63,694 nucleotides of DNA, from NCBI GenBank assembly GCA_033763315.1, contig JANRKS010000038.1, positions 1 through 63,694 on the forward strand, in the 5' to 3' direction. Position 1 is the first letter of the stretch, and the number at the start of each line of letters is the position of its first letter. Positions 1,805-29,178 of this stretch are shown piece after piece. The position numbers and the translations under genes are program-made. The notes below the pieces were generated by a model. The model did not search any database. It saw nothing but the letters and a program-made list of their open reading frames with translations, and was not told the DNA's origin. Source of the DNA: Deltaproteobacteria bacterium (GTDB lineage: Bacteria > Myxococcota_A > Polyangia > Fen-1088).

Positions 1805-1813
1805 GCCGCTTCC

Positions 1814-2080
1814 TTATCGCACGCTTTGGCGCCAGCAGGCCCGGTGCCACCACGTGTTTGTTTTCTCATCAAAAATATCAAGCTCGGCCTGCACGGGCTT
1901 CTCGCAGATCACGCAAGTTTCCTCCGTGATAGTTTGCAGCTCTTGTTCAGCGTTGGCGGCGCCAAGCTTTTGCCGCCGTCTGCGTTCCCTTTGCGCAGAC
2001 GTCTTGGCAACGTAGCGAGCGAAGGCAAAGGCACTGCCAACAAAAGCTACACCCAACAAAACCAATTCAGCGGGATTCAC
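1814..2080 (-). CDS. small membrane-anchored protein with CxxC...HxxC putative zinc-binding motif
   Basis: GTG start, N-terminal hydrophobic helix, CVICEKP...WWHRAC; ends 9 bp before the SPFH start. Confidence 0.6.
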   Translation of the reverse strand: MNPAELVLLGVAFVGSAFAFARYVAKTSAQRERRRRQKLGAANAEQELQTITEETCVICEKPVQAELDIFDEKTNTWWHRACWRQSVR

Positions 2081-2274
2081 GGGATCTTTGGCACCTTGTG
2101 CGCGTTTGTTGCCAGAATGTACCACAAGCGTAAGCGGGTGGGCTGGCGGTGGCATGCAAAGGCTGCCGGATGCGGCTTGCCTGCCACAAGGAAACGTCGC
2201 GGCGGAAAGAACCGCATAAGGCAACGCGAAACATCGTTGTCTGCTAGATAGCGGTGTCGTTTTGGGAGGGGTTG

Positions 2275-2802
2275 ATGAAGCAGCTTCTTGTTCCAGTTGG
2301 CGCACACGATCATGCCCGGGGGCCCGTGGACGCACACGTGACGATTGTGCAGTACGGGGATTACGATTGCCCCCACACACGTTTATCGAACCGCATTCTT
2401 GTGCAGTTGCTGCCCAACTTGCCTGTTTCGTGTCGTTTCATATATCGGCACTTTCCCTTGCGCCACCTGCACGCGAACGCACAACTGTTCGCGGAACTTG
2501 CTGAAGCCGCCGCCGATCAAGGGAGGTTCTGGCCGTTTCACGATCGCGTGATGAGCCACTCGCGCGCGCCGGATGAGGCTGAGTTGCGAGCGGATTTGCA
2601 TGCGGCGGACCTTGATTTGGATGGGCTGGCAAGAGCGATCACGCTCAAGGTGCGTGCGCGGGTTGAAGACGATCTGCAAGGCGGTAAAGCTGCGGGCGTG
2701 CACAGCACCCCCACATTCTTCTTCAATGGCGTTCTGCATGAGGGGCACTACGACCCTGCCACCGTGCGCGGCTTGATCGACGCGGCAGCCAATCGTTTGT
2801 GA
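2275..2802 (+). CDS. DsbA-like thioredoxin-fold protein (Thioredoxin_4 type) with CxxT instead of CxxC
   Basis: DHARGPVDAHVTIVQYGDYDCPHT, YRHFPL, GVHSTPTFFFNG. Confidence 0.85.
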   Translation: MKQLLVPVGAHDHARGPVDAHVTIVQYGDYDCPHTRLSNRILVQLLPNLPVSCRFIYRHFPLRHLHANAQLFAELAEAAADQGRFWPFHDRVMSHSRAPDEAELRADLHAADLDLDGLARAITLKVRARVEDDLQGGKAAGVHSTPTFFFNGVLHEGHYDPATVRGLIDAAANRL

Positions 2803-4778: not shown

Positions 4779-4926
4779 CCGTGGTCCCCTAGCGTTGCGC
4801 AGGCGTCGATCGTGACGTGCCGTCGGCGTTTGTCACAGGAGTGGAACGGTTGTGCGTTTACGCCCTTGTTTCGGCCGCGATCAGCGTTGGTACGCGATGT
4901 GAATAGTCACGTTGCGGAGGATCAAA

Positions 4927-5415
4927 ATGCCGAATTCAAACGCAATGGATAAAGACACGAAAGAAGCTGTGGGTACGGGCGCGGGGGCGTTGGCAGGCGC
5001 GGCCGCGGGTGCAGCTTTGGGCACTGCGATCCCCGGGGTGGGCAACGTGGTGGGTGCTGTGATTGGTGGGGCTGTTGGTTTGGCGGGTGGGGCCGTAGCT
5101 GGAAGGGCGATTGCTGATTCCATCGACCCTAAGGTCGAAAATGAATATTGGAGCGAGAACTATGCCTCGCGACCTTACTCGAAAGACACGAGCTACGACG
5201 ATCTGGGGCCCGCTTATCAATATGGCTGGGAAACGCGGGGACAACACCCGGTAAGCAAGCGCTTCGACGATGTTGAATCGGACTTGAGCCGCAACTGGGA
5301 CAACAAGCGAGGCAACTCGCGCTTGAGCTGGGATCGCGCCAAACAAGCCACGCGTGACGCTTGGGATCGCATCGAGCGGAAGTTGCCTGGCGATTTCGAC
5401 GGCGACGGCAAATAA
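4927..5415 (+). CDS. glycine-zipper-containing conserved hypothetical protein
   Basis: GGAGG upstream; GAGALAGAAAGAALG..GAVIGGAVG; PAYQYGWE, LSWDRAKQATRDAW. Confidence 0.75.
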   Translation: MPNSNAMDKDTKEAVGTGAGALAGAAAGAALGTAIPGVGNVVGAVIGGAVGLAGGAVAGRAIADSIDPKVENEYWSENYASRPYSKDTSYDDLGPAYQYGWETRGQHPVSKRFDDVESDLSRNWDNKRGNSRLSWDRAKQATRDAWDRIERKLPGDFDGDGK

Positions 5416-5476
5416 GGCGAGAGCAAAAAACTGTTTGTGGCGGCGGCGTGCAGCGCGCCTACCTGCCCTGAACGCC

Positions 5477-5508
5477 GGGCGGCCCTGTGTTGATTCACGG
5501 GGTCGCCC
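5477..5508. terminator. GC-rich hairpin between convergent genes
   Basis: GGGCGGCCCTGTG-TTGATT-CACGGGGTCGCCC 13-bp stem with two G-U pairs; no clear U tract. Confidence 0.35.
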
Positions 5509-5546
5509 GCTGCACATGCGCTTGCACAGACTAGCGGAACCAACAG

Positions 5547-6842
5547 TCACATCACCGTTGGTGCAGCCTTCATGCGGCGTTGAAGGCGATAAGCCACGAG
5601 GCCCGCCACCAACGTGGCGCCGCTGATCACGCTTTCGAATGGCTTGCGGTAGATGGTGAACGCCACCATCCACGCCACCAACAGCAAAAACACCACTGGC
5701 ACGAAGGGCCAACCAACAACTTTGAGGCCAGGCTGCTTCTGCTTGAGACGGAACAGGCCAAACACAGTGGCTGCGTTGCTGAGGCCTAGTAACACACCGA
5801 TGTATGTCAGCAAGTGTTCATAGGTTGCTGTGGTGGCTAAGGCGACCGACAGCAACAAAATGAGTGTGATGGCGTGCCGTGGCGGTTGCCCAGGCGGCGG
5901 TGCGAGCCATGGCGGCAGATATGCGTCTTGCGCCATGCGACCCACCACGCGCGGGCCTGTGAACGTCAACGCTGAGATGCTGGCAGCCAAGGCCAACGCC
6001 ACAAGTGCCGACACCAGCGTTCCAAGCGCGGGGCCGCCCCACATGATCGCGGCGATTTTGCCCACTTCCAGTTTGCCCGCCATCAATGCGGGATCACCGG
6101 CGCGCACGAACGCCGTGTTGAGCAACAAATAAAGCAAGGTTGTGAAGCCGGTGCCCAGCAGCAGCGCGCGCGGCAATGTTTTCTCGGGGTTTTTCACTTC
6201 GCCGCCGATGTAGACGCCTGCGTTCCAACCCGCGTAGCTAAATGAAACCCACACCAACGACACAGCGAAGTCGGCGATGGGAAACGACACTGGTTGCGCG
6301 GTGAGGGTGGTGCCAAGCGGCACTTGCGCCTGGCACAGGCCAAACACCGCCAGTGAGACGATCAAGATCAGCTCACACACCACAACCCATGCGTGCACGC
6401 GGGAGCCATGACGGTGCGAAACAGCGTGCAACAATGCCGCCGCGCAAAGGATCAATACAGTTGTGATTGTGGGCGGAAAGCCCGCAGGCAAAAACGGCGA
6501 CGCGTATTTGCCGAAGGCGATGGCAGCCGAAGCCAGTGGCGCCGCGAAGCCCGCCGTCAACGACATCCACCCCGCCAGATAGCCAGCGGCGGGGTGAACC
6601 GTGCGCGAGAGAAACACGTACTCGCCGCCGCTTTCGGGAATCGTGCTGGCCAGGGCGCCGTAGCAAAGCGCGCCGCACGCCGCGAGCACGCCACCCGCAA
6701 GCCACGCCAGCAGCACCCACAAGCCTGAACGCAAGTCGGCCAGCAAAAAACCAGTGGTGGTGAACACGCCTGTGCCCACCATGCTGGCCACAACAAGGGC
6801 CGTGGTCGCGAACAACCCTAAGTGGCGGGTAGGGGTAGACAC
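5547..6842 (-). CDS. APC family amino acid permease
   Basis: VVASMVGTGVF, PESGGEYVFL, FSYAGWN, GEVKNPEKTLPRAL; about 12 TM helices; start estimated. Confidence 0.92.
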   Translation of the reverse strand: MSTPTRHLGLFATTALVVASMVGTGVFTTTGFLLADLRSGLWVLLAWLAGGVLAACGALCYGALASTIPESGGEYVFLSRTVHPAAGYLAGWMSLTAGFAAPLASAAIAFGKYASPFLPAGFPPTITTVLILCAAALLHAVSHRHGSRVHAWVVVCELILIVSLAVFGLCQAQVPLGTTLTAQPVSFPIADFAVSLVWVSFSYAGWNAGVYIGGEVKNPEKTLPRALLLGTGFTTLLYLLLNTAFVRAGDPALMAGKLEVGKIAAIMWGGPALGTLVSALVALALAASISALTFTGPRVVGRMAQDAYLPPWLAPPPGQPPRHAITLILLLSVALATTATYEHLLTYIGVLLGLSNAATVFGLFRLKQKQPGLKVVGWPFVPVVFLLLVAWMVAFTIYRKPFESVISGATLVAGLVAYRLQRRMKAAPTVM

Positions 6843-6964: not shown

Positions 6965-8884
6965 TTGATGAGCCGCATCACCGATACGTTCCCGGTTGAA
7001 GATCTGAATGAGGCCCTGCGCAGCGCAGGCGTCGGCGTCTGGAGCTGGGACATTGCCACCAATGTGATTCGTTGGTCGGACGTTACCCACCGCATTTATG
7101 ACGTCACGCCCGAACAGTTCACGGGTGAGTATGCATCCTTCGCAGCCCGCATCCATCCCGACGATCGGCAGCGCGTGGAGCAAACCATTGCCGACGCCGT
7201 GAGGGGGTTGCGCCAAGATTACACGATCGAGCATCGTCTGATTCTGCCAGCCAACGACGTGAGGTGGGTTGAAGGGCGGGGGCGCGTGGTGTCCGATCAG
7301 CAAGGGCGTCCCTTGCGAATGATTGGCACCGTTGTTGACATCACCGCACGCAAGGCAAGCGAAGAGGAACTGCGCAAAGGTGAAGAGCGGTTGCGCTTGT
7401 TCACCACGCACGCCACGGATTACGTATACGAAGTGCGCGGGGAGGAGCACGTGCCTCACGTGGTGGCGGGATCGTTTGAGCGCACCACCGGCCTCACAAT
7501 TGCGGACGTGCGCGCGCGCGGTGGTTGGATGCAGGTTGTGCATGCAGAAGACCGAGAGCGGCTGCTTGGTCTGTTGGACGAGATCAGGCGTGGCCGCAGC
7601 CTCTTGAACGAGTACCGCATCATCGATGGCGCAGGCCGCACAAGATGGCTACGCGATCGGATCGTGCCGGTGTTAAGCGAAAACGGCGCCCTCGAAGGCG
7701 TGGTGGGTGGCGTCTCAGACATCACTGAACAGCACGCTCTGCAAGAGCGCTTGGTAGAGGCGCAACGGCTTGAAGCGTTGGGGCGGTTGGCCGCCGGTGT
7801 GGCACACGACTTCAACAATTTGCTCACCGTCTTGATGGCTGAGTCGTCGTTTTTGCAAGAGCCCAACGTGACAGACGAGATCAAGCAAACAAGCCTGCAG
7901 GCGATCAGTCTCACGCTTGAACGCGCCACCAATTTGACCTCGTCGCTGTTGGCGTTTGGTCGCAAGAACGTACGTCCCGTGGCTGTGCTTGATTTTGTGT
8001 CGTTGCTGCACAAATCGCACACGATGTTAAGCCGAGCCGCCGGCGAACGTCTGGATGTCAGTGTGCGCTGTGAAGAGCGCCAACTGCCCGTGGTGGCCGA
8101 GCCAAGCGACGTGCAGCTGGTGCTGCTGCACTTGATCCTGAACGCCCGCGAGGCGATGCCGAGAGGCGGGCGCGTGGTGTTGTCGCTGCAGGCGGTGACG
8201 CTGTCGCTGGAGGATCCCGAACGCCCGTCGTCGTTGCCGCCTGGCACATACGCGCGCCTCGTGGTGCGCGACGAGGGGCCTGGCATTGATCGCGAGGCGC
8301 TTTGCCATATCTTTGAGCCGTATTTTACGACCAAAGGGCACGGTGGCACCGGGCTGGGGTTGCCCACGTCGTTGGGCATCGTGCAGCGCTACGGTGGCTT
8401 GCTGCGGCTCAAAGAGACCTCGGCGCGTGGCAGTCTCTTCGAGGTTCTTTTGCCGGTGTCCGATCAACCATTCGCCAGAGCCGCTGTGCCCCCAAGCCGG
8501 GCCCAATTGGAGGGCACTGAACACATCTTGCTTGTCGAAGACGATGGACCGGTTCGGTCCGTTCTGTCCCGCTTGCTGCAAGACCGCGGCTACCACGTGA
8601 CCGCCGTGGCTTCAACCGAGCAGGCGCTTGCCCTAGGCGATGCATTGGCGAACGTGCAAGTTCTGCTCACCGACGTCCGCTTGCCGGGCCAAAGCGGGCT
8701 TGATTTGGCGGCACACCTGCGGCGGCTTTACCCGCGGCTGCCGGTGCTGGCGATGTCGGGGCACGTGGAGGATCCCGAACAACAGGCGCAACTAACGCAG
8801 GGGCGGTATCCCTTCATTGCCAAGCCGTTTTCCAACCAAGCGCTGTTGCTGCGTTTGCGTGAGGTTTTGGATCGCGGCGTGTAA
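6965..8884 (+). CDS. PAS-PAS hybrid sensor histidine kinase with receiver domain
   Basis: two PAS/PAC domains, AHDFNNLL H-box, FEPYFTTK..GTGLGL, receiver LLVEDD..LTDVRLP..KP. Confidence 0.95.
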   Translation: MMSRITDTFPVEDLNEALRSAGVGVWSWDIATNVIRWSDVTHRIYDVTPEQFTGEYASFAARIHPDDRQRVEQTIADAVRGLRQDYTIEHRLILPANDVRWVEGRGRVVSDQQGRPLRMIGTVVDITARKASEEELRKGEERLRLFTTHATDYVYEVRGEEHVPHVVAGSFERTTGLTIADVRARGGWMQVVHAEDRERLLGLLDEIRRGRSLLNEYRIIDGAGRTRWLRDRIVPVLSENGALEGVVGGVSDITEQHALQERLVEAQRLEALGRLAAGVAHDFNNLLTVLMAESSFLQEPNVTDEIKQTSLQAISLTLERATNLTSSLLAFGRKNVRPVAVLDFVSLLHKSHTMLSRAAGERLDVSVRCEERQLPVVAEPSDVQLVLLHLILNAREAMPRGGRVVLSLQAVTLSLEDPERPSSLPPGTYARLVVRDEGPGIDREALCHIFEPYFTTKGHGGTGLGLPTSLGIVQRYGGLLRLKETSARGSLFEVLLPVSDQPFARAAVPPSRAQLEGTEHILLVEDDGPVRSVLSRLLQDRGYHVTAVASTEQALALGDALANVQVLLTDVRLPGQSGLDLAAHLRRLYPRLPVLAMSGHVEDPEQQAQLTQGRYPFIAKPFSNQALLLRLREVLDRGV

Positions 8885-13973: not shown

Positions 13974-14477
13974 TTAAAGGAAGCGGATCACTTCGCCTTT
14001 GGCGTGCACAGAGCGCCAACGCGTTTTGACTTCTCGTTTGCCTTGGCTGTTCGTCTTGAGTGAATCAGCCAAATCGCCGGCTCGTTCAGCGGGTGTTTGT
14101 GGGTTCTCATCGAGAAACTCGATGTTGATGACGCCGTTGCCGCCCATCTTGATGGCGGCGTTGACCAAGGCGCCCTTGATGGTTCCGTCAATCTGCGCGT
14201 CGCCCACGTCGAGCACGCCGGCCACCTGGTTGCCAAAACCAGTTGCCTGCACGAATCCCAACGTTTGGTAAGGCCGGGGTGCGGCGCCCGTGGATAGAAA
14301 CACTTGATTGCCTTGCGCCGGTCGCGAAGACAACGGGCCGCTTTGCACAACAGCGGTACATGCGCTGCTGCCACACAGGGCCATGGCAAGGCTTGCCACG
14401 AGGGTTAATTGATTCGCCCCGCAGCGCCTGGTTAGGCGTGGGGCCACGAGGGGCACGGGTGAGGGAGCATGTTTCAT
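13974..14477 (-). CDS. lipoprotein, YbjQ/heavy-metal-binding-like fold
   Basis: lipobox-like SSAC; PRPYQTLG, AAIKMGGNGVINIEF, AKGEVIRF; paralog-like to the neighbour. Confidence 0.65.
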   Translation of the reverse strand: MKHAPSPVPLVAPRLTRRCGANQLTLVASLAMALCGSSACTAVVQSGPLSSRPAQGNQVFLSTGAAPRPYQTLGFVQATGFGNQVAGVLDVGDAQIDGTIKGALVNAAIKMGGNGVINIEFLDENPQTPAERAGDLADSLKTNSQGKREVKTRWRSVHAKGEVIRFL

Positions 14478-14531
14478 GGGGTGGGTCCTTTGCACAAGTG
14501 AACGCACGAGCGGGATCGGGTCACTGAAACT

Positions 14532-15566
14532 TCAAAATTGTGAGGTACGCGCCTCAAGGCCCACCCACGCTCCGGGCTGCCACGTGGCCAACCGCAAAGC
14601 GGCGCCCGTGGCGTCGGGGGGCGAAATGGTGGTTGGGGGAATGGCGTCTAAGCCGACGCCCAAGGTGCCAAACAGCCAAGCGGCCAAACGCAGCTCCGTG
14701 CGTAGTTCCCACCGCAAGGCCGGCAGCACGAGTGACCGCGGCGCCTCGACCGTGGAGGTCGGCGCGCCAGAAACCCAGTCGCCTCCGCCGCCCACGCCCA
14801 CAACGAAGGCGACGTCTTCAGTGCGGGCGATCGTGAAGGCCAGGCCAAACCTCCAGTCCCACACACTGAGCGACCACTCGTTGCTTTCAAGATCTTGCGC
14901 CTCGACAAGCAGCGGCTTCCAGACCGAGGTCCACACCGTTACGTCACCCAGGCGGTTGTTCCACCGCGACGATAGACGCAGCCGCGGCCCCTGCGCTGCG
15001 GCCCCCGTGGCCATCAGCCAGTGTGCCGCGTAGGTCGTTTCAAGCGCCAAGGCGCGCGTTTGGGTTTGCCGCTCTACCGCGCGAGGTGCAGGGGCCGTGG
15101 TGGTGTGCGCCGCGACGATCGGCGGCGGCGGGTGCGGCAACTCGCTTTTGATCTCATCCAGCGTCAGCGCCACTTGTGCACGATCGTCAAGCGCGGCGAA
15201 GGTGGGCGCCAGCAACTGCGCGGCTTGTTCCGCGAGGATCGTGTCGTTGTTTTGTTCGGGAAGCCGTCGCACGAAGAAGCGCTGCGCGTTCGCGTCCCGA
15301 AAGTAGATCTTCACATTCTTGCGATCGCGCAGATCGATCCAAGCCGCAGGGCGCGCCGGCCCGTTGTGCGAGGCTTTCAGAAAATCATCGCTCTTGAGAT
15401 CGCTGCGCGCTTGCCAATGCACCAACAAGGGCTCAGACACCAGCGCTTCGACCAGTTCAGATACCACGTGGCTTGTATCACCGGGGGGCCGCACGCTGAT
15501 CACCTCCACCTCGGCGCTTGTGCCCGGCGCGGTGAGGCACAACAACAAGAAAGAGATTGTCATCAC
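14532..15566 (-). CDS. secreted hypothetical protein, possible C-terminal beta-barrel
   Basis: signal peptide, Pro-rich linker, alternating-strand C-terminus ending in F; overlaps the upstream gene's stop. Confidence 0.65.
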   Translation of the reverse strand: MMTISFLLLCLTAPGTSAEVEVISVRPPGDTSHVVSELVEALVSEPLLVHWQARSDLKSDDFLKASHNGPARPAAWIDLRDRKNVKIYFRDANAQRFFVRRLPEQNNDTILAEQAAQLLAPTFAALDDRAQVALTLDEIKSELPHPPPPIVAAHTTTAPAPRAVERQTQTRALALETTYAAHWLMATGAAAQGPRLRLSSRWNNRLGDVTVWTSVWKPLLVEAQDLESNEWSLSVWDWRFGLAFTIARTEDVAFVVGVGGGGDWVSGAPTSTVEAPRSLVLPALRWELRTELRLAAWLFGTLGVGLDAIPPTTISPPDATGAALRLATWQPGAWVGLEARTSQF

Positions 15567-21541: not shown

Positions 21542-21990
21542 GACAGGCCTGGGTGGCGTTGGCGGCCGGATTTGTTTTCGCCTTGGGCCTGGGCCTTGGG
21601 GGCATGACGCAGCCCCTAAAGGTGACTGGGTTTTTGGATGTGTTCGGCCATTGGGATCCCTCGTTGATGTTTGTGATGGCCGGGGCGATCGCGGTGCACA
21701 TGCCCGTTGTTTTGTGGCAGCGGCGTAGGCAAGCGCGCGGCTTGATCGCCGCGCCAGAGGGGGGGTGTGGCCTGCCTGAAGAGGGCGCCAAGCTGTGGGA
21801 TGCGAGGCTCGTGGGTGGAGCCGCGGTGTTTGGTGTGGGGTGGGGGCTTGGCGGCTTTTGCCCTGGCCCCGCCTTCGTGAGCGCTGGCGCCGGGACGCTT
21901 TCAGCCCTGGTTTTCGTGGTGGGTATGGCGGCCGCTATGTGGGCGCAGGCTTGGCTTAGCCGTGGCGCCCGGGCAGGCGGGCCCCGCTAG
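21538..21990 (+). CDS. YeeE/YedE-family membrane protein, half 2
   Basis: GGMTQPLKVTGFLD, WDPSLMFVM, FGVGWGLGGFCPGP; ATGA overlap. Confidence 0.9.
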   Translation: MRQAWVALAAGFVFALGLGLGGMTQPLKVTGFLDVFGHWDPSLMFVMAGAIAVHMPVVLWQRRRQARGLIAAPEGGCGLPEEGAKLWDARLVGGAAVFGVGWGLGGFCPGPAFVSAGAGTLSALVFVVGMAAAMWAQAWLSRGARAGGPR

Positions 21991-22580
21991 CCGCCACGCT
22001 TGGGCACCACCCGCGCAATGTACGTGGCCAAGCTGCAAACCCCCAACCCCGCCGTCACAGACGCCAACCCCCAAGGCGCCGGCCTGCCCAGCAAGATGAC
22101 CATCGCCGTGGCGAACTGAAGCACCGTCGTGGCCTTACCCAGGTTGTTTGCGCGGTAGTTGTAGCGACCCTGTCTACGCAACCTGGGTGCAAGCGCGTAG
22201 ATGGTGATGGAGGCCAACTGCAGCCACTCCCGCAACAGCAACAGGCCAACGAGCCGCGCGGGTGCCCCGAAATGCCACACCAGCCCCCCGAGCACGCAGC
22301 CTATAAAGAGCTTGTCGCACAAAGGGTCCAGCCAATCCCCCCGCGGAAAATCAACCTGGGTCGGTTTTCTGGCCGCCGAAGCCCCTGCGAAATCAACCTG
22401 GGTGCTTTTCCCGGACGGGGTGCTTTTCCCGGACGCGCGGCGGGCCACCCAGCCGTCGAGAATGTCGGTTAATGCGGCGGTGGCTATAAGGACGGTGCCG
22501 ACCGAGGCCGAGCGGGCCAGTAACAAGAACAACATCCCCAAGGGCAGCCGCGACAAAGAGAGCAGATCGGCCCACGGCAT
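21987..22580 (-). CDS. CDP-alcohol phosphatidyltransferase carrying a ~25-aa in-frame insertion
   Basis: ADLLSLSR, TDILDGWVAR...GDWLDPLCDK signature, LLLLREW, GKATTVLQ. Confidence 0.88.
   Translation of the reverse strand: MPWADLLSLSRLPLGMLFLLLARSASVGTVLIATAALTDILDGWVARRASGKSTPSGKSTQVDFAGASAARKPTQVDFPRGDWLDPLCDKLFIGCVLGGLVWHFGAPARLVGLLLLREWLQLASITIYALAPRLRRQGRYNYRANNLGKATTVLQFATAMVILLGRPAPWGLASVTAGLGVCSLATYIARVVPKRGG
22400..22435 (+). repeat. perfect 18-bp tandem duplication GGGTGCTTTTCCCGGACG x2
   Basis: 22400-22417 = 22418-22435; starts inside the GGGT end of the motif copy at 22390; encodes SGKSTP/SGKSTQ. Confidence 0.9.
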
Positions 22581-22637
22581 GCGCCGAGCATACCGCAGGC
22601 CGCTGGTCGGGCACTCGCAGTCAGGTGTTGATGAGAA

Positions 22638-23288
22638 TTAATCGAGTATCGGTGCGCCGCCGCTTAGTTCAGGTGCCGGGCGGTTAGAAATCGGCAAGGG
22701 TGGCGGAAGTGCGGTCCTGCTGGGCAATTCGCTAGACTTGACAGCCGTTTCTTGTACGGGCGATCGGCGCACCTTGCGGTGTATTGACCCGGTCCGGAGC
22801 CCCTCCTGTTTCGGAGCGGATGAGGGGCCTTGAACGGGGGTTATGTCCGATAGAGCGGTCCCGCCGTTGCCGGTCCCAGCCGGGGTGACAGGCCTAGATG
22901 CTGGCAACAAACTGGGTTTAGCAGGCAGGTTCTTGTCCGAAGACGGGGGGTCTGATGATCGCCCGTAAATTGACAGGGCTAACACAATCATCGCCGCCAG
23001 AAGCAGCGGAACCGCTATGAAGGAGTAAAGTCGCCATCTGCGTAGCCGCCTGAAATGAGCGAGCTCCAAATCAAGCGTGGTTTCATTCGAACGAGCGCCA
23101 GCGGAGCGTGAGGCAACATCAGACAAGAGGGCCTTGAGGTCACCCACTTCTTTGGCGAAGGCTTCAAGTTGCGCGGCCATCGTCTCCAAGGCATGCGTTA
23201 CACCCGGCGCAGGCAGCCCGCCCGCCGGAGTCGCCCCCTGCGAAGCGAAGGAGCCACTTCTTCGTCCGGTTCGTCTTTTGCCGCTCAT
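22638..23288 (-). CDS. hypothetical single-TM protein with coiled coil and Pro/Ser-rich tail
   Basis: GAGG RBS before ATG, basic patch followed by a TM helix; no family recognised. Confidence 0.5.
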   Translation of the reverse strand: MSGKRRTGRRSGSFASQGATPAGGLPAPGVTHALETMAAQLEAFAKEVGDLKALLSDVASRSAGARSNETTLDLELAHFRRLRRWRLYSFIAVPLLLAAMIVLALSIYGRSSDPPSSDKNLPAKPSLLPASRPVTPAGTGNGGTALSDITPVQGPSSAPKQEGLRTGSIHRKVRRSPVQETAVKSSELPSRTALPPPLPISNRPAPELSGGAPILD

Positions 23289-23454
23289 AGCCGTTTCCTC
23301 ATTATCGGCCCAGCCGGTTCCAAAGTTGCTTAGAAAATCAACCCGGGTCGTGTGCCTGCAAGGCTCCAACTACCAGCCGTTCCCGAAATCAACCTGGGTG
23401 CTGCAGCGCTGTCGTTTTTGAGCAACTTCGTCGGGGAGTCGTCGATAGGTGGGT

Positions 23455-24363
23455 ATGTCACTCCCGCGACAAATTCTTGCTGGTCGAACCTATATGATCA
23501 CTCGGCGCTGCCTGCAGCGGATGTTCCTGTTGCGTCCTGACGACGAGACCACAAATGCGTTCATCTATTGTCTCGCCATCGCTTCGAAACGGTCTGGCAT
23601 CGCTGTTCATGGCTTCCTCGCGAGTAGCAACCACTACCATGCAGTGATCACCGACGTGCTTGGGCTCTTGCCGGAGTTCCTTGAATATTTTCACCGTTTG
23701 CTCGCAAAGCACCAGAACGCCTTGCATGGGCGTTGTGAAAATATGTGGAGCTGCGAGAAAACCTCGGTCGTTTGGCTGGTATCACCCGACGACATCATTG
23801 AAAAGCTGGTTTACACGCTTGCCAATCCGGTCAAGGACCAGCTCGTTGAACAGGCTCATCACTGGCCCGGGGCGACCTCTTATCACGCCACCTTGCACGG
23901 CAAAGTTCTCACAGCCTCGCGGCCGCGCAGGTTCTTTCGGACAAATGGCAAGTTGCCTCCGTTCGCGGCTCTTGCTTGTGTTCCGCCACAGGTTTGGCAG
24001 GGAGAGGCTCAGCCTCAGTTTGTCGAAACTTTGAAAGAGAGGATTCGTGACGTGGAGCTGGCCGCGGCAAAAGAGCGGCAGCGTTTGGGCAGCAAAGTTA
24101 TTGGACGTAAAGCAATTCTTTCGCAGTCGCCCACAGATTCACCATCAAGTCCACGCACCCGAAACAAATTGCGGCCAGTGCTGGCAGCCAAGAACGTGCA
24201 ACACAGAAACGCAGCCCTGGCAGAGTTGCGGCGCTTTCGCAACGCTTACCTCGTTGCCCGCGAAGCCTGGCGTTCGGACAAGACCCAGGAGTTTCCAATA
24301 GGCACGTGGTGGATCGCGAGATACGCCGGCGCTCGCTGCGCACCGGGCGGCCCGTCGGTATGA
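23455..24363 (+). mobile_element. rayT: HUH/Y1 transposase, REP-associated tyrosine transposase (RAYT / TnpA-REP)-like
   Basis: N-terminal PRQ..GRTYMITRRC, HUH motif SNHYH, catalytic Tyr in YTLANPVK, HHWPG; about 300 aa with C-terminal extension; no tnpB. Confidence 0.85.
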
Positions 24364-24366
24364 TGC

Positions 24367-27300
24367 CTATTTCAGACGTTCAAGCTGTTTCTCAACAGCT
24401 GGACGGTCGGGGGCATCGGTGGGTGCAAGCGTCAGGTATTTCGTCAGCGCCTCGGCGGCGTTCTTCCTGGAACCGGCTTGCAGTTCCGCAAAACCCAACT
24501 GAAAAAACACATCTGCGGCCCAAGGCTTGTCTTCCGGCACGTCAGCCGAAGCGCGCCGCAAGTACTCAAGCGCCTGCTTGCTTTGGCTGCGATCCATGAG
24601 CAGGCGTCCGAGCTTATAAAGCGCTTCGGTATGCTTGGGCTGCAGCCTGACCACGTTCCGCCAAGCGTCCGCGGCTTTATCACTTTCGCCCAAGGTGTCG
24701 TGGGCATTTCCCATCAGCAGGTAGGCTTCGAAAAGCTCTGGATCGATGCCAACGGCGGCCGTGAAATCACTGATGGCCTTATCAGGTTTTGCCCGCTTTA
24801 ATAGGACGCGACCGTGTTCAAGGTGCGCCTCTGCCAAAGCGAACGCTTCACGAAACGCGACCATGGCGTCGTCCTCCTTGCCCGCCTGGTTCAACACCTT
24901 GCCGAATGCCAACTGCACTTCGGGTGTGTTCTCATAACTTGTGGCCCGACGATATTCGCCAATGGCCTTGCCTAGCTCGCCCTGCTTTTCACGTAGTTGA
25001 CCCAATCCGAAAAGCGCCCCCGGCGTCTGCGGTGCATCCTCCACCACCTTCTCCAAGTGTTTGGCAGCCTTCTCGAGGTTGCCCATCTGCAGGGCGAGAC
25101 GACCGATGGCGACTTGAACTTCTGGCCCAGCTTTGCCCGAAGCCAAGGCGGCTTCGTACTGGGACATCGCTTCGTCTTTTTCGCCTAGTTGTAGAGACAG
25201 TGCAGCCAGGCGCTCGCGCAGACCGTCGGTGTTGGGGCTTTGCACCAACAACTCATCTAGCTCGAGTTTGGCTTCACCCACGCGTCCTTGCGCTTCCAAT
25301 GACGAAGCCAGTCCTAGGCGAGCCGCCGTGAGCGCTGGATCAGAGCTCAAAACCTTGCGGAAAACTTGTTCGGCTCGATCCGGTTGTTTGGCAACAATGA
25401 GCGCTTGGCCCCACGCAATTTGAAGCACGGAAGAAGGAGCCCCTGCGTTTTCGGCGGCCTTGAGAATTTTCAACGAGTCGGCGGCACGGTTCGTTCGCTG
25501 CAACAATGCAGCGAGACGCAAAGAGGCAGGTACGAACGCAGGGGTCAACTTTAAGGCTTGAGCGTATTGTTCCTCCGCCGCCCGCAGATCGGGATTGACG
25601 GCTTCCTCCGCCGCCCAGGCTTTGAAGAAGGGGCCGCGGGGATCCCGCGGGGCCATGGGCAAAGCCTTCTCGATGAGAGGAAGGCCTTCCGAAGCACGGT
25701 GCGTGGCAATCTGGGCGCCACCCAACGCGAACAACCCGTCAAGCTTCTTGGTTGCTTCTATGGCCACGCTCTGCGCGCGCGCGAGTGCCTCGTTGAATCG
25801 CCCTTCCGCGAGGAGTGTCTCCGAAAGGGCAATGCTTGCGTCGACGTTGCCAGGATCAGCTGCCAACGCTTGTGCATAGGCCTTGTTCGGGATGGCCGTT
25901 TTGCCTAGAGCCGCAGCCGTCCGGCCCTTAAGAACGTGGACCGCCGCGATCTCCGCGCCCGAAGCGTCCGTGGCGTTCAAGACGGCCAGCCGTTCAAGTT
26001 TCTCCAGCAGAATGGTTGGCTTTAAGTCCTGCGTGCGCAATGCACCGAGCGCCGCAGCGACGTGCTGTGGATTGGCCGCCGCCACCTTCGTGAATGCAGC
26101 ATTGGCCTTCTGCGTTTGGCCCGCGGCCTCGTAAGCGCGTGCCAACATGTATTGAGGCAATAAGCGCCCAGGTTGCTGCGAGACCGCGATTTCGAAGGTG
26201 CTGGCGGCTGACGCAGGGCTTCCGGAAGCCATCTGTTTGAAACCGATGATCAGCCGCGCGCCAACGCTATCTTCAATGCCGGCAAGCAACGGCTCTGCCC
26301 TTTGGGGTTTGCCTTGCGCGACCTCAAGCAAAGCGCGTGCTCTTCTTTCAACCTGGGTTGGTTCCGGAGTCTGCAAGATTTGGGATAGCGCTTGCTCGGC
26401 CTCTAACATCGCGCTTTTGGGAGCGCCGCGAGCAATCCGAGCGAGCAAGAGGAGCTCAGCAGCTTGTGCCCTCAACTCGTCGCCCTTCGATTCAATTGCT
26501 GCCTGTTGCAACAAGGCGGCAGCAGCCTGCTTGTATGAGGGAAACGAATCGCGTTCTAGCTGAGCGGCGAAGGGGGCCAGGGTTGTATCGGGCGATGCGC
26601 CTCGCTTAAGCATCGGCAAAATGAAGAATATGGCTGCGGCTGTGACCAAAGCCAGTGCGGCCCCTATGCCGCCCAGCAGCCGCAAGTTGATGGGACGGCG
26701 GCGTTTGGTTTGCTCCGGTCCGCCTTCGGCGCGATGGGGACTGAGCTCGGGAATCGCGTCTTCGAGGACGCCCATTGCATTCACTTCGATGGCGGGCAAT
26801 GCCGAGGAGGGCACCACCGTTGTGCTCGGAGACGATGGATTTTGGGCGTGAGCTCCTTCAATGTCCAAGCGAAAGCCGAGCCCGCCATCGATGGTCTGCT
26901 CACCCGGCTGAACGGGCACGCTTAGATCCGGAAGCCCCCTTGTGTGAGCGGAAGGCGAGGTGTCGGACATATCGCTCAACAGGTCCAGATCCAACCCGGG
27001 TGCACCCGCCGCCGCCTTCGGGACCCCGCCAATCCCCAATATCGTCGCCCCACCATTGGCCGTCGTTGGGGGCAGATCCATGTCGGGCGAAAGATCGAGG
27101 TCGAGGCCATCAAGAGCCGGCGCGGGGCGACCTTGTGCCGACGCTCCCAGGTTGAGTGGAGTCAGCGGACTTGCGCTCGTGGGCTCCGGCGTCCGCTCCC
27201 TGTCTTGAGAGGCACCCAGGTTGATTCTGGCGAGGGCGATGGGAGTGGCCGGAATGCGTGAATCCACCCGCTGGACAGCGCTGCGCGGCACAGGCAGGTT

Positions 27301-27909
27301 CGGTTGCGGGATTGCCTCTCGCGGTGCCGGCAAGTTGGGTAACGGCACTGCCTCCCTAGCCGCGGGGAGATTACCCAGGTTGATTTTCCCGGCCGGTTGA
27401 GGCACCGCTTCGCGCGCGGCCGGCAGATTGGGAGCCGGAATCGCCTCCCGCGGCGCCGGCAGATTTGGCTGAGCAACGGCTTCCCGGGGGGCTGGCAGAT
27501 CTTGAACGCGTGGGGGAGGCAACGGCGGCGGAGCGCCTTTGGACGCTGGAAGGTTGGGCATAGGGATCGCCTCCCGTGGCGCCGGAAAATCAACCTGGGT
27601 CAGTGGCTGCCCTCCCAGGTCAAATCCAGGTTGAGGGGGGGCGAGGCCCAGCGAGGGAGAAGGTATGGCCTCCCGAGGCGCTGGCAAGTTACTCATGCTG
27701 CGGGGGCGCCCGGGAAGCTCGGGGTCTTCACGGCTCTCAACCACCAAAGCGGCGGCGCCGCCCGCCAGCACTTGCGACGGCAGCGGTTGTGGTCGGCCTT
27801 TGGCCGAGAAGCTGTGTCCGCAAGTGGCACACCGATGGTGCTCTCCGGACCCCGGCGCTGCGGCAGGCTGTGCTCGACCGCATTTTGGACAGAAGACTTG
27901 AGCTGACAC
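24367..27909 (-). CDS. large zinc-ribbon / Pro-rich repeat / TM / multi-TPR protein
   Basis: N-terminal CPKC..CATC, NLPAPREAIP repeats, TM LLGGIGAALALVTAAAIFFILP, long TPR array. Confidence 0.88.
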   Translation of the reverse strand: MSAQVFCPKCGRAQPAAAPGSGEHHRCATCGHSFSAKGRPQPLPSQVLAGGAAALVVESREDPELPGRPRSMSNLPAPREAIPSPSLGLAPPQPGFDLGGQPLTQVDFPAPREAIPMPNLPASKGAPPPLPPPRVQDLPAPREAVAQPNLPAPREAIPAPNLPAAREAVPQPAGKINLGNLPAAREAVPLPNLPAPREAIPQPNLPVPRSAVQRVDSRIPATPIALARINLGASQDRERTPEPTSASPLTPLNLGASAQGRPAPALDGLDLDLSPDMDLPPTTANGGATILGIGGVPKAAAGAPGLDLDLLSDMSDTSPSAHTRGLPDLSVPVQPGEQTIDGGLGFRLDIEGAHAQNPSSPSTTVVPSSALPAIEVNAMGVLEDAIPELSPHRAEGGPEQTKRRRPINLRLLGGIGAALALVTAAAIFFILPMLKRGASPDTTLAPFAAQLERDSFPSYKQAAAALLQQAAIESKGDELRAQAAELLLLARIARGAPKSAMLEAEQALSQILQTPEPTQVERRARALLEVAQGKPQRAEPLLAGIEDSVGARLIIGFKQMASGSPASAASTFEIAVSQQPGRLLPQYMLARAYEAAGQTQKANAAFTKVAAANPQHVAAALGALRTQDLKPTILLEKLERLAVLNATDASGAEIAAVHVLKGRTAAALGKTAIPNKAYAQALAADPGNVDASIALSETLLAEGRFNEALARAQSVAIEATKKLDGLFALGGAQIATHRASEGLPLIEKALPMAPRDPRGPFFKAWAAEEAVNPDLRAAEEQYAQALKLTPAFVPASLRLAALLQRTNRAADSLKILKAAENAGAPSSVLQIAWGQALIVAKQPDRAEQVFRKVLSSDPALTAARLGLASSLEAQGRVGEAKLELDELLVQSPNTDGLRERLAALSLQLGEKDEAMSQYEAALASGKAGPEVQVAIGRLALQMGNLEKAAKHLEKVVEDAPQTPGALFGLGQLREKQGELGKAIGEYRRATSYENTPEVQLAFGKVLNQAGKEDDAMVAFREAFALAEAHLEHGRVLLKRAKPDKAISDFTAAVGIDPELFEAYLLMGNAHDTLGESDKAADAWRNVVRLQPKHTEALYKLGRLLMDRSQSKQALEYLRRASADVPEDKPWAADVFFQLGFAELQAGSRKNAAEALTKYLTLAPTDAPDRPAVEKQLERLK
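27285..27690 (-). repeat. coding repeat of about 12 aa / 36 bp, (N/D)LPA(P/A)REA(I/V)PxP
   Basis: about 8 imperfect units visible in the translation. Confidence 0.85.
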
Positions 27910-28227
27910 CGAAAAGACGTCCCGGGTTGAGTTTCCTCGTCGCCGCTAATGCAGGATCCTGGAGCGGCCCTTCGAAAAGTTCGGCGCTTTAGGTGGCTTC
28001 TTTAGCCCGCCGCATCCCTTTTCTCGCGTAGCGGCAAATTTTGAACGCCTCCGCCGGAAGCCGAAAGATCAACCTGGGTGCGCAGCTAAGAAAATCAACC
28101 CGGGTTCGGGTCCCCACGCAAGGTCGACCCTCCCTCCACCCCGGCTGCTGTGCCCAGCCACCTGGAAATCAACCTGGGTTCGGGTAGAGGACTTGGAAGG
28201 GCAGGCTGTGCCTGTTAAAAACGCGGG

Positions 28228-29178
28228 GTGATTCGCCACGACCATTCGCTTGCTGAGATTGAAGCCCTCTACAACCAGTCGCTGCCCCGGCTGATCCGCC
28301 AGGCGCAGGCGATTCATGAGCAGCACCACAGCCCCGACGAGGTGCAGCTGTGTACGCTTCTTTCGGTCAAGACGGGCGGCTGCCAAGAGGATTGCTCCTA
28401 CTGCCCACAATCGTCGAAGTACGAAACAGCGGTCGACCCGCAACGCATGCTCAGAGTCGACGAGGTCCTCGATTCAGCCCGCAAAGCCAAAGAGGCGGGC
28501 GCCACCCGCTTCTGCATGGGCGCCGCCTGGCGCGAGGTCAAAGAGGGCCCCGCCTTCGACTCTGTGCTCAACATGGTCCGCGGTGTCAAGGAACTGGGCA
28601 TGGAAGCCTGCGTGACCCTCGGCATGCTCACCGAAGACCAGGCCGCCCGCCTCGCGGACGCCGGCCTTACCGCCTACAACCACAACCTCGATACCTCCCG
28701 CGAGTTCTACGGCAAGATCATCAGCACCCGCACCTACGAGGATCGCCTCACCACGATCCGCAACGTTCGTAAAGCGGGCGTCACCGTGTGCTGCGGCGGC
28801 ATCATCGGCATGGGCGAATCCGTGCGCGACCGCTGCGCCATGCTGATGACCCTCGCAAACCTCGACCCGCAGCCCGAAAGCGTGCCGGTGAACATGCTGG
28901 TACCCGTCGAAGGCACGCCGCTGCAGAACCTGCCTGAGACCGATCCGCTGGAACTTGTGCGTACCATCGCCACAGCGCGCATCCTAATGCCTAAGGCCAA
29001 GGTTCGTCTTTCCGCGGGCCGCACGAAGCTGTCACGCGAGGCGCAGTTGCTGTGCTTCCTCGCGGGCGCGAATTCTGTGTTCTACGGCGAAAAACTGCTC
29101 ACGACCGGCAATCCGGATGTGCAAGAGGATCAAGCGCTCTTGCGTGACGCCGGCATGCGCCCCGCCGCTTTAGGCTAA
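28228..29178 (+). CDS. bioB: biotin synthase
   Basis: radical [42 protein letters not shown]. Confidence 0.97.

What the first reader, a model, noticed from the sequence alone, without database searches (positions are those of the whole stretch)
22348..28179. RAYT-type HUH transposase at the centre of a local cloud of one 14-bp motif, with no classical REP hairpins
Seen: AAATCAACC(T/C)GGGT occurs as 6 exact and 4 one-mismatch copies, plus degenerate cores, between 22348 and 28179. I found no full copy in the other ~58 kb. Copies lie on both sides of the Y1 transposase, in both orientations, in intergenic DNA (2 just upstream of the transposase, 3 before bioB) and inside coding genes, where they read as TQVDF or (K/R)INLG. 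The core ACC(C/T)GGGT is a dyad too short to form a hairpin. Known: characterised RAYT/TnpA-REP enzymes are flanked by 20-40-bp palindromic REPs with a tetranucleotide foot, mostly intergenic, and IS200/IS605 ends are hairpins. Neither pattern is present here. Inference: this may be an undescribed single-copy HUH system that recognises a short motif and propagates it locally in cis, making small insertions and duplications in neighbouring genes (a local diversifier), or that uses the motif as a recombination or cassette site.
Basis: partly seen in the sequence, partly recalled or inferred. Interest (0 to 1): 0.92.

Follow-up and report, generated by a model that had tools for sequence, protein, structure and literature searches.

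The report
RAYT-like nuclease with local short repeats
A myxobacterial relative of the REP-associated tyrosine transposases sits in a tight local cluster of its own 14-base repeat, which lacks the usual hairpin and has entered neighbouring genes in frame, so it looks like an unusual variant of a known kind of mobile DNA.

Summary
The 14-mer has 10 copies (0-1 mismatch) at 22348-28179 and none elsewhere in the window. Genome-wide there are 10 exact AAATCAACCYGGGT copies in 7.63 Mb, 8 of them here.

The 302-aa gene encodes a Y1 HUH protein. Its best structural match is E. coli TnpA-REP. It carries an extra C-terminal domain seen only in Myxococcota.

The pattern recurs. Both paralogs in this genome have their own related local word. 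So do many homologs in other Polyangia genomes, where copies usually form inverted arrays flanking the gene.

A same-genus syntenic locus lacks the copies. There the pgsA-like gene is 21 codons shorter and the TPR-bioB spacer about 170 bp shorter. A closely related strain differs by two tandem duplications at motif copies and by a 123-nt segment holding two copies.

Best reading: a REPtron/TIRtron-like system whose short, hairpin-less cognate repeat spreads mainly near the gene. The kind is known; the variant is new. Catalysis, the cleavage site and any diversifying role are inferred only. The window locus lacks the canonical inverted flanks.

The parts
23455..24363 (+). Y1 HUH (RAYT-like) gene, 302 aa. 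An alternative GTG start lies at 23449. HUH motif SNHYH; catalytic Tyr in YTLANP; extra C-terminal domain of about 150 aa.
   Evidence: ORF. NCBIfam REP_Tyr_transpos E 6.3e-8, 32.6 bits against a cut-off of 80. No Pfam family at E<=0.01. Invariant N59 H60 H62 Y120. AF2 pLDDT 94.3. Foldseek best match 4ER8 TnpA-REP, E 6.4e-7.
22348..22361 (+). Motif copy, exact, inside the pgsA-like gene; read as TQVDF on the gene strand.
22390..22403 (+). Motif copy, exact, inside the pgsA-like gene. An 18-nt tandem duplication begins at its position 11.
22344..22427 (-). Loop segment of the pgsA-like gene: 84 nt here against 21 nt in the same-genus ortholog (+63 nt, 21 codons). It holds both motif copies and sits between the AR and G of the CDP-alcohol phosphatidyltransferase motif.
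22400..22435 (+). Tandem duplication, 2 x 18 nt, with unambiguous boundaries. The related strain in run X1 has a single unit.
   Evidence: D6; table 4
23335..23348 (+). Motif copy (C at position 10), 120 bp upstream of the HUH start.
23386..23399 (+). Motif copy, exact, 69 bp upstream of the HUH start. Strain X1 has an extra 15-nt tandem unit starting inside it.
27214..27227 (-). Motif copy (1 mismatch) in the TPR gene, read as RINLG. The ortholog has RLNLG, so the 3' part is native.
27373..27386 (-). Motif copy, exact, in the TPR gene, read as KINLG. It replaces a partly similar native stretch (net -6 nt against the ortholog).
27587..27600 (+). Motif copy, exact, in the TPR gene, read as TQVDF. 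Net +9 nt against the ortholog. It forms a perfect 17-nt inverted pair with the 27373 copy, 194 nt apart.
   Evidence: (I9)
28066..28079 (+). Motif copy (1 mismatch) in the TPR-bioB spacer.
28092..28105 (+). Motif copy (C at position 10) in the TPR-bioB spacer.
28166..28179 (+). Motif copy, exact, 49 bp before the bioB start. It is retained in strain X1.
28040..28162 (.). 123-nt segment holding the 28066 and 28092 copies. In the related strain X1 it is replaced by 11 other letters.
   Evidence: tables 5, 5c
21987..22580 (-). Host gene: CDP-alcohol phosphatidyltransferase (pgsA-like).
24367..27909 (-). Host gene: 1180-aa TPR protein with a repetitive N-terminal part. Its stop lies 4 bp after the HUH stop.
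28228..29178 (+). bioB (radical SAM + BATS), downstream of the three spacer copies.

Best explanation
The gene at 23455-24363 encodes a RAYT-like Y1 HUH single-strand DNA nuclease/ligase of a roughly 300-aa clade found in Myxococcota (Polyangia). The 14-mer is its cognate DNA repeat. It plays the role of a REP or TIR but is short and has no hairpin.

Inferred mechanism. The enzyme nicks single-stranded DNA in or beside the motif, possibly near CCT^GGG. It then either primes short local re-synthesis, giving tandem duplications and arrays, or transfers short motif-bearing pieces to nearby single-stranded DNA. Copies accumulate mostly within a few kb of the gene and survive only where tolerated: spacers, protein loops and low-complexity regions.

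Shown:
- locality of the motif;
- recurrence of the gene-plus-local-word association in paralogs and homologs;
- absence of the copies from an orthologous locus;
- strain-level indels at motif copies.

Inferred:
- that this protein acts on the motif;
- the cleavage position;
- cis preference as the cause of locality.
For: 1. Locality. 8 of 10 exact genome copies lie in 6 kb. In a genome-wide scan, 21 loci hold an 11-mer with at least 5 copies in 10 kb that make up at least 40% of its genome count. Only 5 of these are scattered over more than 3 kb. The two strongest are this locus (9 of 17) and the C5 paralog (9 of 13).

2. Paralogs. The C5 paralog (60% identity) has CAACCTGGGA, 14 of 15 contig copies within C5:183263-207969. 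The C8 paralog (42%) has 9 copies of CAACCCCGGTG in the 1.4 kb upstream of the gene.

3. Homologs.
- In the first 16 loci from 4 genomes, most show their own TCAACC..GG-type word, up to 43 copies in 18.6 kb.
- In 40 further loci, a Markov-corrected top 11-mer reaches -log10p>=8 in 27 of 40, against 5 of 22 controls (Fisher 8e-4).
- By my reading, an AACC-N1-3-GG word is the top word in 14 of 40 against 1 of 22 (Fisher 0.006).

4. Architecture. In 10 of those 14 loci, copies lie 50-550 bp upstream in one orientation and about 200-420 bp downstream in the other. In G027, five copies share 84-96% identity over a 1.2-1.3 kb unit flanked by such arrays. G024 has at least 9 MITE-like doublets.

5. 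Genomes without the gene. G001 (same genus) has 14 scattered singletons of the 11-mer and no cluster.

6. Ortholog test. Syntenic G002 lacks the copies. pgsA is 21 codons longer here and the TPR-bioB spacer is about 320 bp against about 150 bp.

7. Strain X1 (92-97% identical, HUH present). Of 4 structural differences of 15 nt or more, 3 touch motif copies. Both tandem duplications are compatible with a start after position 10.

8. Protein. Invariant HUH and Tyr. The fold is nearest TnpA-REP.

9. Published TnpA-REP biochemistry includes ssDNA cleavage and models of ssDNA-circle transfer and nick-primed local amplification (passages of PMC3333891).
Against: - No biochemistry exists for this clade.
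- The motif has no hairpin, which all characterised Y1 enzymes use.
- The window locus does not show the canonical inverted flanks. Both upstream copies are in the '+' sense and there is no downstream flank.
- Naive top-k-mer counts do not separate HUH loci from controls (p=0.43, p=0.81). Only the composition-corrected statistic does.
- 13 of 40 new loci show no strong word.
- Protein distance and motif distance are uncorrelated (Mantel r=0.046; 552 of 2000 permutations reach it). Only near-identical gene copies share a motif.
- In G024 only 26 of 89 copies lie within 20 kb of a detected gene copy, so locality is not general.
- Two of the three TPR copies overlap native NLG-coding sequence that is present in the ortholog.
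- The 123-nt indel is not bounded exactly by motif copies.
- G002 is not the ancestor, so the direction of each change (gain or loss) is inferred.
Confidence: 0.6

Rival explanations
1. The motif is a preferred target or landing site. Arrays arise by another process such as slippage, and HUH elements home to them, so the association reflects insertion preference rather than propagation by the enzyme.
For: IS elements that target REPs are known (abstract of PMC8450116 in the listing). Arrays flank the multi-copy units in G027. Motif clusters exist in G024 far from any detected gene copy.
Against: - Each paralog has its own variant next to it.
- Arrays sit at similar distances and in inverted sense on the two sides of the gene. 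A single interrupted direct array would not give this.
- G001, without the gene, has no cluster.
- The syntenic G002 locus has neither the motif nor this gene.
Confidence: 0.12
2. The HUH protein, or another local factor, is a domesticated DNA-binding protein. The copies are binding sites kept by selection, for example for local regulation or chromosome organisation, and are not mobile.
For: Copies sit upstream of the HUH gene and of bioB in the sense of those genes. The core is a near-palindrome, as dimer binding sites often are. The gene is kept at the same place in strain X1.
Against: - Copies lie inside coding sequence in both orientations and coincide with insertions.
- Tandem duplications begin inside copies.
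- Near-identical multi-copy gene units and MITE-like doublets occur in relatives.
- The catalytic residues are invariant.
- No HTH family is detected in the C-terminal domain.
Confidence: 0.12
3. The copies are scars of repeated nearby insertion and imprecise excision of the whole gene unit (local hopping of an IS). They are not independently spreading mini-repeats.
For: The family behaves as an IS in some genomes: 36 matches with many fragments in G019, and 84-96% identical 1.2-1.3 kb units in G027. Gene position differs between G000 and G002.
Against: - Copies share only the 14-16 nt. No other end sequence of a unit accompanies them.
- The pairs in pgsA and upstream of bioB are direct, not inverted.
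- Excision of characterised Y1 elements is seamless (established knowledge of IS608, recalled).
Confidence: 0.08
4. Chance, composition or protein-level repetition (NLG/INLG peptides) produces the cluster.
For: AACCTGGG encodes NLG, which is native and repeated in the TPR protein and present in pgsA orthologs.
Against: - 0 of 100 shuffles reach 10 matches.
- Copies occur in both orientations and in non-coding DNA.
- Local density is about 1000 times the genome background.
- The same association recurs at paralogs and homologs.
Confidence: 0.02

Closest known systems
E. coli TnpA-REP / REPtron with REP-BIME (Nunvar 2010; Ton-Hoang 2012, PMC3333891; structure 4ER8)
   Same: - Y1 HUH fold with the Y---NP tyrosine motif; best structural match.
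[quoted passage not shown]
- The unit itself seems not to move in this genome.
- The published models of ssDNA-circle transfer and nick-primed local amplification fit the tandem duplications seen here.
   Different: - The repeat is 14 nt with no stem-loop and no GTAG foot.
- About 10 copies concentrated in 6 kb, rather than hundreds genome-wide.
- The protein is 302 aa with an extra Myxococcota-only C-terminal domain.
- Copies occur in frame inside genes.
TIRYT / TIRtrons (Di Nocera 2013, PMC3733652); subclass 2.1 of TnpA-Y1 (Quentin 2018, PMC6006769)
   Same: RAYT-like genes flanked by non-hairpin inverted repeats. Some of these form moderately abundant families arranged in dimers or clusters (passages). 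Relatives of this gene show exactly such inverted flanks.
   Different: - No GGGGWSAS motif in the repeat.
- No Bac_DnaA_C, HTH_23 or HTH_28 tail.
- The flanks are arrays of a short unit rather than one long TIR.
- The window locus lacks the inverted arrangement.
- Strong locality and coding insertions were not reported in the passages I read. Their supplementary alignments could not be seen.
REPIN-RAYT systems of Pseudomonas (Bertels and Rainey 2011, 2017; PMC5581495)
   Same: Several diverged RAYT paralogs per genome, each with its own repeat family. Inverted doublets act as the likely mobile form; compare the G024 doublets.
   Different: - REPINs are hairpin doublets dispersed genome-wide, with flanking 16-mers at 57-140 occurrences per replicon for groups 2 and 3.
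- Here there are 10 exact copies, local, with no hairpin.
- In some relatives the gene is multi-copy and IS-like.
IS200/IS605 (IS608, ISDra2)
   Same: Y1 HUH catalytic core. Strand-specific ssDNA chemistry is expected. The G027 unit has short palindromes at its conserved left boundary.
   Different: - Those TnpA proteins are about 150 aa with a Y---Q motif (table).
- Their ends are subterminal hairpins.
- No hairpin ends were seen at the window locus.
- I did not search for a tnpB partner.

Membership tests
Y1 HUH endonuclease superfamily (TnpA-Y1) | HUH metal-binding motif | tested here: met
   SNHYH; N59, H60 and H62 are invariant in 11 and in 52 aligned homologs.
Y1 HUH endonuclease superfamily (TnpA-Y1) | Single catalytic tyrosine on a C-terminal helix of the core | tested here: met
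   Y120 is invariant. It lies in helix 111-122 of the model.
Y1 HUH endonuclease superfamily (TnpA-Y1) | Fold similarity to solved Y1 transposases | tested here: met
   Foldseek: 4ER8 E 6.4e-7; ISDra2 and IS608 chains E 1e-4 to 1e-3. A profile against PDB sequences is only weak, E 0.016-0.025.
Y1 HUH endonuclease superfamily (TnpA-Y1) | Curated family model passes its cut-off (Pfam Y1_Tnp; NCBIfam REP_Tyr_transpos) | tested here: not met
   No Pfam family at E<=0.01. NCBIfam gives 32.6 bits against a cut-off of 80.
RAYT / TnpA-REP (class 2 of Quentin 2018) | Y---NP tyrosine motif | tested here: met
   YTLANP. N124 and P125 are conserved in at least 90% of sequences. The signature is taken from the table.
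RAYT / TnpA-REP (REPtron) | Gene flanked by palindromic REP hairpins with a conserved foot | tested here: not met
   ssDNA folds z >= -0.28. The repeat is 14 nt with unrelated flanks.
RAYT / TnpA-REP (REPtron) | Flanking repeat highly abundant across the genome | tested here: not met
   10 exact copies in 7.63 Mb, 8 of them local. RAYT groups 2 and 3 have 57-140 occurrences.
RAYT / TnpA-REP (REPtron) | Low copy number with diverged paralogs; the gene does not transpose as a unit | tested here: inconclusive
   In G000 there are three paralogs at 100/60/42% identity, and the gene is at the same site in strain X1. In G027, however, units are 84-96% identical, and G019 has many fragments.
TIRYT / TIRtron (subclass 2.1) | Gene flanked by non-hairpin inverted repeats | tested here: inconclusive
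   Met in relatives: 10 of 14 loci, and the G027 units. Not met at the window locus, where both upstream copies have the same sense and no downstream copy lies within 2.8 kb.
TIRYT / TIRtron (subclass 2.1) | C-terminal HTH tail (Bac_DnaA_C, HTH_23 or HTH_28) | tested here: not met
   No Pfam family at E<=0.01. Only unnamed Myxococcota clusters match the C-terminal part.
TIRYT / TIRtron (subclass 2.1) | GGGGWSAS motif in the TIR (majority of described cases) | tested here: not met
   The 14-mer and its flanks do not contain it.
IS200/IS605 insertion sequences | Short TnpA (about 150 aa, Y---Q), subterminal hairpins, near-identical multiple copies | tested here: not met
   The protein is 302 aa with Y---NP. 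No hairpins. No near-identical copy in G000.
Any of the above | ssDNA binding, cleavage and strand transfer on the cognate repeat | not testable with these tools
   Needs purified protein and oligonucleotides.

The most novel reading that the evidence does not exclude
The transposable unit is essentially the enzyme's bare recognition site of about 15 nt, with no hairpin and no cargo. A cis-acting Y1 HUH enzyme writes it into single-stranded DNA within a few kb of its own gene. Targets include loops and linkers of housekeeping proteins, giving heritable in-frame insertions and tandem duplications. This would be a local, enzyme-driven indel generator, and the smallest mobile repeat so far tied to a dedicated enzyme.
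Probability: 0.2. Interest if true: 0.8.

Novelty: new variant of a known kind. Interest (0 to 1): 0.6.

Why it matters
How RAYT-type enzymes spread their repeats is still unsettled, and all biochemistry so far rests on hairpin REPs. This clade offers three things:
- a repeat without a hairpin;
- a steep fall-off of copies with distance from the gene;
- fresh indels between close strains that begin inside the repeat.

Together these make three questions directly testable: cis action, the cleavage position, and nick-primed local amplification. The locus also shows that such repeats can sit in frame inside essential-type enzymes. Here that is the catalytic loop of a CDP-alcohol phosphatidyltransferase; in a relative it is MurB and a PGK tail. 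This matters for annotation and for understanding loop-length variation in Myxococcota proteins.

Tried and rejected
- Chance or composition: rejected.
- Longer hidden repeat unit: rejected. The flanks of the 10 copies are unrelated, and the spacers between neighbouring copies look unrelated by eye.
- Hairpins: none.
- Known RNA families: 0 matches in L001 and three G024 doublet loci at E<=0.1.
- G024 165-bp doublet core: absent from G000, and not homologous to the flanks of the G024 gene units.
- Naive top-k-mer tests: no separation of HUH loci from controls. GC-rich coding words dominate, so I replaced these with a Markov-corrected statistic.
- Co-variation of protein and motif: not found beyond near-identical copies.
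- GC3-based gene calling: unreliable at 60% GC, so dropped.
- GC content of the gene is 0.56-0.59 against 0.606 for the genome: not informative.
- Runs X2 and X3 held only short pieces and added nothing.
- Subclass assignment in the Quentin 2018 scheme could not be made.
- Literature searches found no paper on this Myxococcota clade or on hairpin-less local repeats of a RAYT. That covers only the held library.


Full report
OBSERVATION

The 14-mer is real and local. With up to one mismatch, AAATCAACCYGGGT occurs 10 times in the window, all between 22348 and 28179. Dinucleotide shuffles expect 0.02. The window is a whole contig (C38) of a 7.63-Mb, 40-contig, 60.6% GC assembly. Genome-wide there are 10 exact copies. 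Eight are here, one is on C33, and one is on C5, 2.2 kb from a paralog of the HUH gene. Shorter cores show the same contrast, roughly 1000 per Mb locally against about 1 per Mb elsewhere.

Positions 3-14 are invariant apart from C/T at position 10, and the flanks share nothing. Single-strand folds of the motif regions are no better than shuffles, with z from -0.28 to +1.17. The genome has two diverged paralogs: C5:198946-199836 at 60% identity and C8:189088-189993 at 42%.

THE GENE

The 302-aa product has no Pfam family at E<=0.01. It matches NCBIfam REP_Tyr_transpos below cut-off (E 6.3e-8, 32.6 bits against 80). SNHYH and the tyrosine in YTLANP are invariant across homologs.

An AlphaFold model built on 52 sequences has pLDDT 94.3. 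Its best PDB match is the E. coli REP-associated tyrosine transposase 4ER8 (E 6.4e-7), followed by the ISDra2 and IS608 transposases. Residues of about 150-302 form an extra domain that matches only unnamed Myxococcota clusters.

Sources name homologs 'putative transposase' or 'REP element-mobilizing transposase RayT', or list them as hypothetical proteins of Polyangia. Most sit on contigs of 1-4 kb. Two related named loci are Kofleriaceae and 'Deltaproteobacteria' MAGs.

THE ASSOCIATION RECURS

De novo word counts around the two paralogs found their own local words. Near the C5 copy it is CAACCTGGGA, with 14 of 15 contig occurrences within C5:183263-207969. In the 1.4 kb upstream of the C8 copy it is CAACCCCGGTG, 9 copies.

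A genome-wide scan looked for any 11-mer with at least 5 copies in 10 kb making up at least 40% of its genome count. It returned 21 loci. Only five are scattered over more than 3 kb. The two strongest are the window (9 of 17) and the C5 paralog (9 of 13).

The family is patchy in relatives: 21 of 41 genomes have a match at E<=1e-5. It is multi-copy in some, with 36 matches in G019, 21 in G027 and 7 in G024. In 16 loci from four genomes most show a related word. Examples are 43 copies of a TCAACCTGG-type word in 18.6 kb of G013, and 10-21 copies of a CATCAACCCGGGT-type word at three G027 loci.

For an independent set I fetched 40 further loci from 24 genomes. I compared them with 22 control stretches: 20 fetched as controls, mostly about 60 kb from a gene copy on the same contig, plus two pgsA loci.
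- Naive top-word counts did not separate the two sets (p=0.43, p=0.81), because GC-rich coding words dominate.
- With an order-3 Markov expectation, the top 11-mer reaches -log10p>=8 in 27 of 40 loci against 5 of 22 controls (Fisher 8e-4; Mann-Whitney 0.006).
- By my reading of that output, the top word is of the AACC-N1-3-GG type in 14 of 40 against 1 of 22 (Fisher 0.006).

ARCHITECTURE IN RELATIVES

In 10 of those 14 loci the copies lie 50-550 bp upstream of the gene in one orientation and about 200-420 bp downstream in the opposite one. In G027, five gene copies share 84-96% nucleotide identity over a 1.2-1.3-kb unit (gene, about 130 bp upstream, about 270 bp downstream). Each is bordered by such inverted arrays, and the array spacers differ from copy to copy.

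G024 also carries at least nine dispersed doublets: one to three copies in each orientation around a conserved core of about 165 bp. In G024, 26 of 89 copies of the 11-mer lie within 20 kb of the six gene matches, so locality is not universal.

In G013 the clusters lie in spacers and in tolerant parts of core genes: within MurB, in the linker of a DUF7657/DUF7654 protein, and at the tail of PGK. The surroundings are therefore ordinary chromosome, not an island.

ORTHOLOG AND STRAIN COMPARISONS

G001 (same genus) has no family member at E<=1e-5. It has only 14 scattered singletons of the 11-mer, similar to the 16 singletons of G000 outside the two clouds.

G002 (same genus) has the syntenic block pgsA - unknown gene - TPR - bioB, with no HUH gene between the unknown gene and TPR and none of the 14-mer copies. 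It carries a different paralog (42%) beyond bioB, with a weak word of its own at 5 copies.

Relative to G001, G002 and G005, the pgsA-like protein of G000 has 21 extra residues holding both TQVDF copies. They sit between the AR and the G of the CDP-alcohol phosphatidyltransferase motif. The TPR-bioB spacer is about 320 bp here against about 150 bp in G002.

In the TPR gene:
- the 27587 copy goes with a net +9 nt;
- the 27373 copy replaces a partly similar native stretch (net -6 nt);
- the 27214 copy differs from the native CGCCTGAACCTGGG by four changes in six bases, including a rare AGA codon. Its 3' half is native NLG-coding sequence.

Contigs of run X1 cover 21907-28400 at 92-97% identity, with the HUH gene in place. 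X1 shows four structural differences of 15 nt or more:
- It has one unit, not two, of the 18-nt repeat at 22400. This repeat starts at motif position 11, and its boundaries are unambiguous.
- It has an extra 15-nt tandem unit inside the 23386 copy. This is compatible with the same start.
- It lacks 28040-28162, with its two copies, and has 11 other letters there.
- It has one more native 36-nt TPR repeat unit.
Three of the four touch motif copies, which cover about 2% of the stretch.

INTERPRETATION

The simplest account is a REPtron/TIRtron-like system. A RAYT-type Y1 enzyme has a cognate repeat that it nicks and rejoins on single-stranded DNA.

Published work on E. coli TnpA-REP shows ssDNA cleavage, for example at TGCC|TGAT. 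It proposes both ssDNA-circle excision and integration and nick-primed local amplification of BIMEs (passages of PMC3333891). Di Nocera et al. described RAYT-like genes flanked by non-hairpin inverted repeats (TIRYT/TIRtrons), some forming repeat families in dimers or clusters, and REPs inside genes (abstract and passages of PMC3733652). Quentin et al. classify such proteins; the class 2 signature is Y---NP (section 15 of PMC6006769).

The present clade fits the kind but differs in several ways:
- the repeat is a bare 14-mer without a stem;
- copies are concentrated near the gene;
- copies are found in frame inside genes;
- the protein has a private C-terminal domain rather than the HTH tail of subclass 2.1.

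The cut near CCT^GGG is an inference from two duplications and one 10-nt insertion. Cis action is inferred from the distribution only.

AGAINST THIS READING
- The window locus itself lacks the inverted flanks. Both upstream copies have the same sense, and the TPR stop follows the HUH stop by 4 bp.
- 13 of 40 new loci show no strong word.
- Motif distance does not track protein distance (Mantel r=0.046; 552 of 2000 permutations reach it). Only near-identical copies share a motif.
- The 123-nt indel is not bounded by copies.
- No enzyme of this clade has been assayed.

RIVALS

The rivals keep modest weight: target-site homing, binding sites of a domesticated protein, and scars of local hopping. 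Chance is excluded.

VERDICT

This is a new variant of a known kind, of real interest to people working on RAYTs and HUH enzymes. The diversifier and cassette ideas remain unsupported.

Noticed in passing
G000 C5:183263-207969 (L002 holds C5:197446-201336): The paralog of the HUH gene (60% identity, C5:198946-199836) has its own cloud of CAACCTGGGA, 14 of 15 contig copies, in both orientations. One exact copy of the window's 14-mer lies at C5:202080.
   Followed up: partly
G000 C8:187647-189013 (L003): The second paralog (42%) is preceded by 9 copies of CAACCCCGGTG. Three lie in one orientation further upstream and six in the other next to the gene. The contig ends 1.1 kb after the gene.
   Followed up: partly
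L039-L047 (G024, nine sites): MITE-like doublets: one to three motif copies in each orientation around a conserved core of about 165 bp with an internal palindrome. There is no Rfam match, and the core is absent from G000.
   Followed up: partly
L029-L033 (G027): Gene units of 1.2-1.3 kb at 84-96% identity. The conserved left boundary carries short palindromes (GCCGG-N4-CCGGC type). Array spacers are uniform within an array but differ between copies.
   Followed up: partly
window 27290-27689: The N-terminal part of the TPR protein is built of degenerate 36-nt units (NLPAPREAIP type). Strain X1 has one more unit at 27448-27483.
   Followed up: partly
window 22344-22427: The pgsA-like enzyme has about 33 residues, not 8, between the AR and G of its catalytic motif. 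Whether it is still active is unknown.
   Followed up: no
G000 C19:134672-138319; C24:202141-206987; C40:283147-291790: Three other scattered local 11-mer clusters (5-6 copies, 43-50% of the genome count) that are not next to a detected HUH gene.
   Followed up: no
L058 (G002:C171) 1593-6762: The syntenic locus of the same genus carries a different HUH paralog at the contig end, and 5 copies of ACCAAGGGTA spread over 5 kb.
   Followed up: partly
L038 (G013:C358) 2375, 2741, 7126-7261, 14257-14539: Motif copies inside MurB, in the linker of a DUF7657/DUF7654 protein, and at the C-terminal tail of PGK. The MurB_C match spans 138 residues for a 99-position model.
   Followed up: partly
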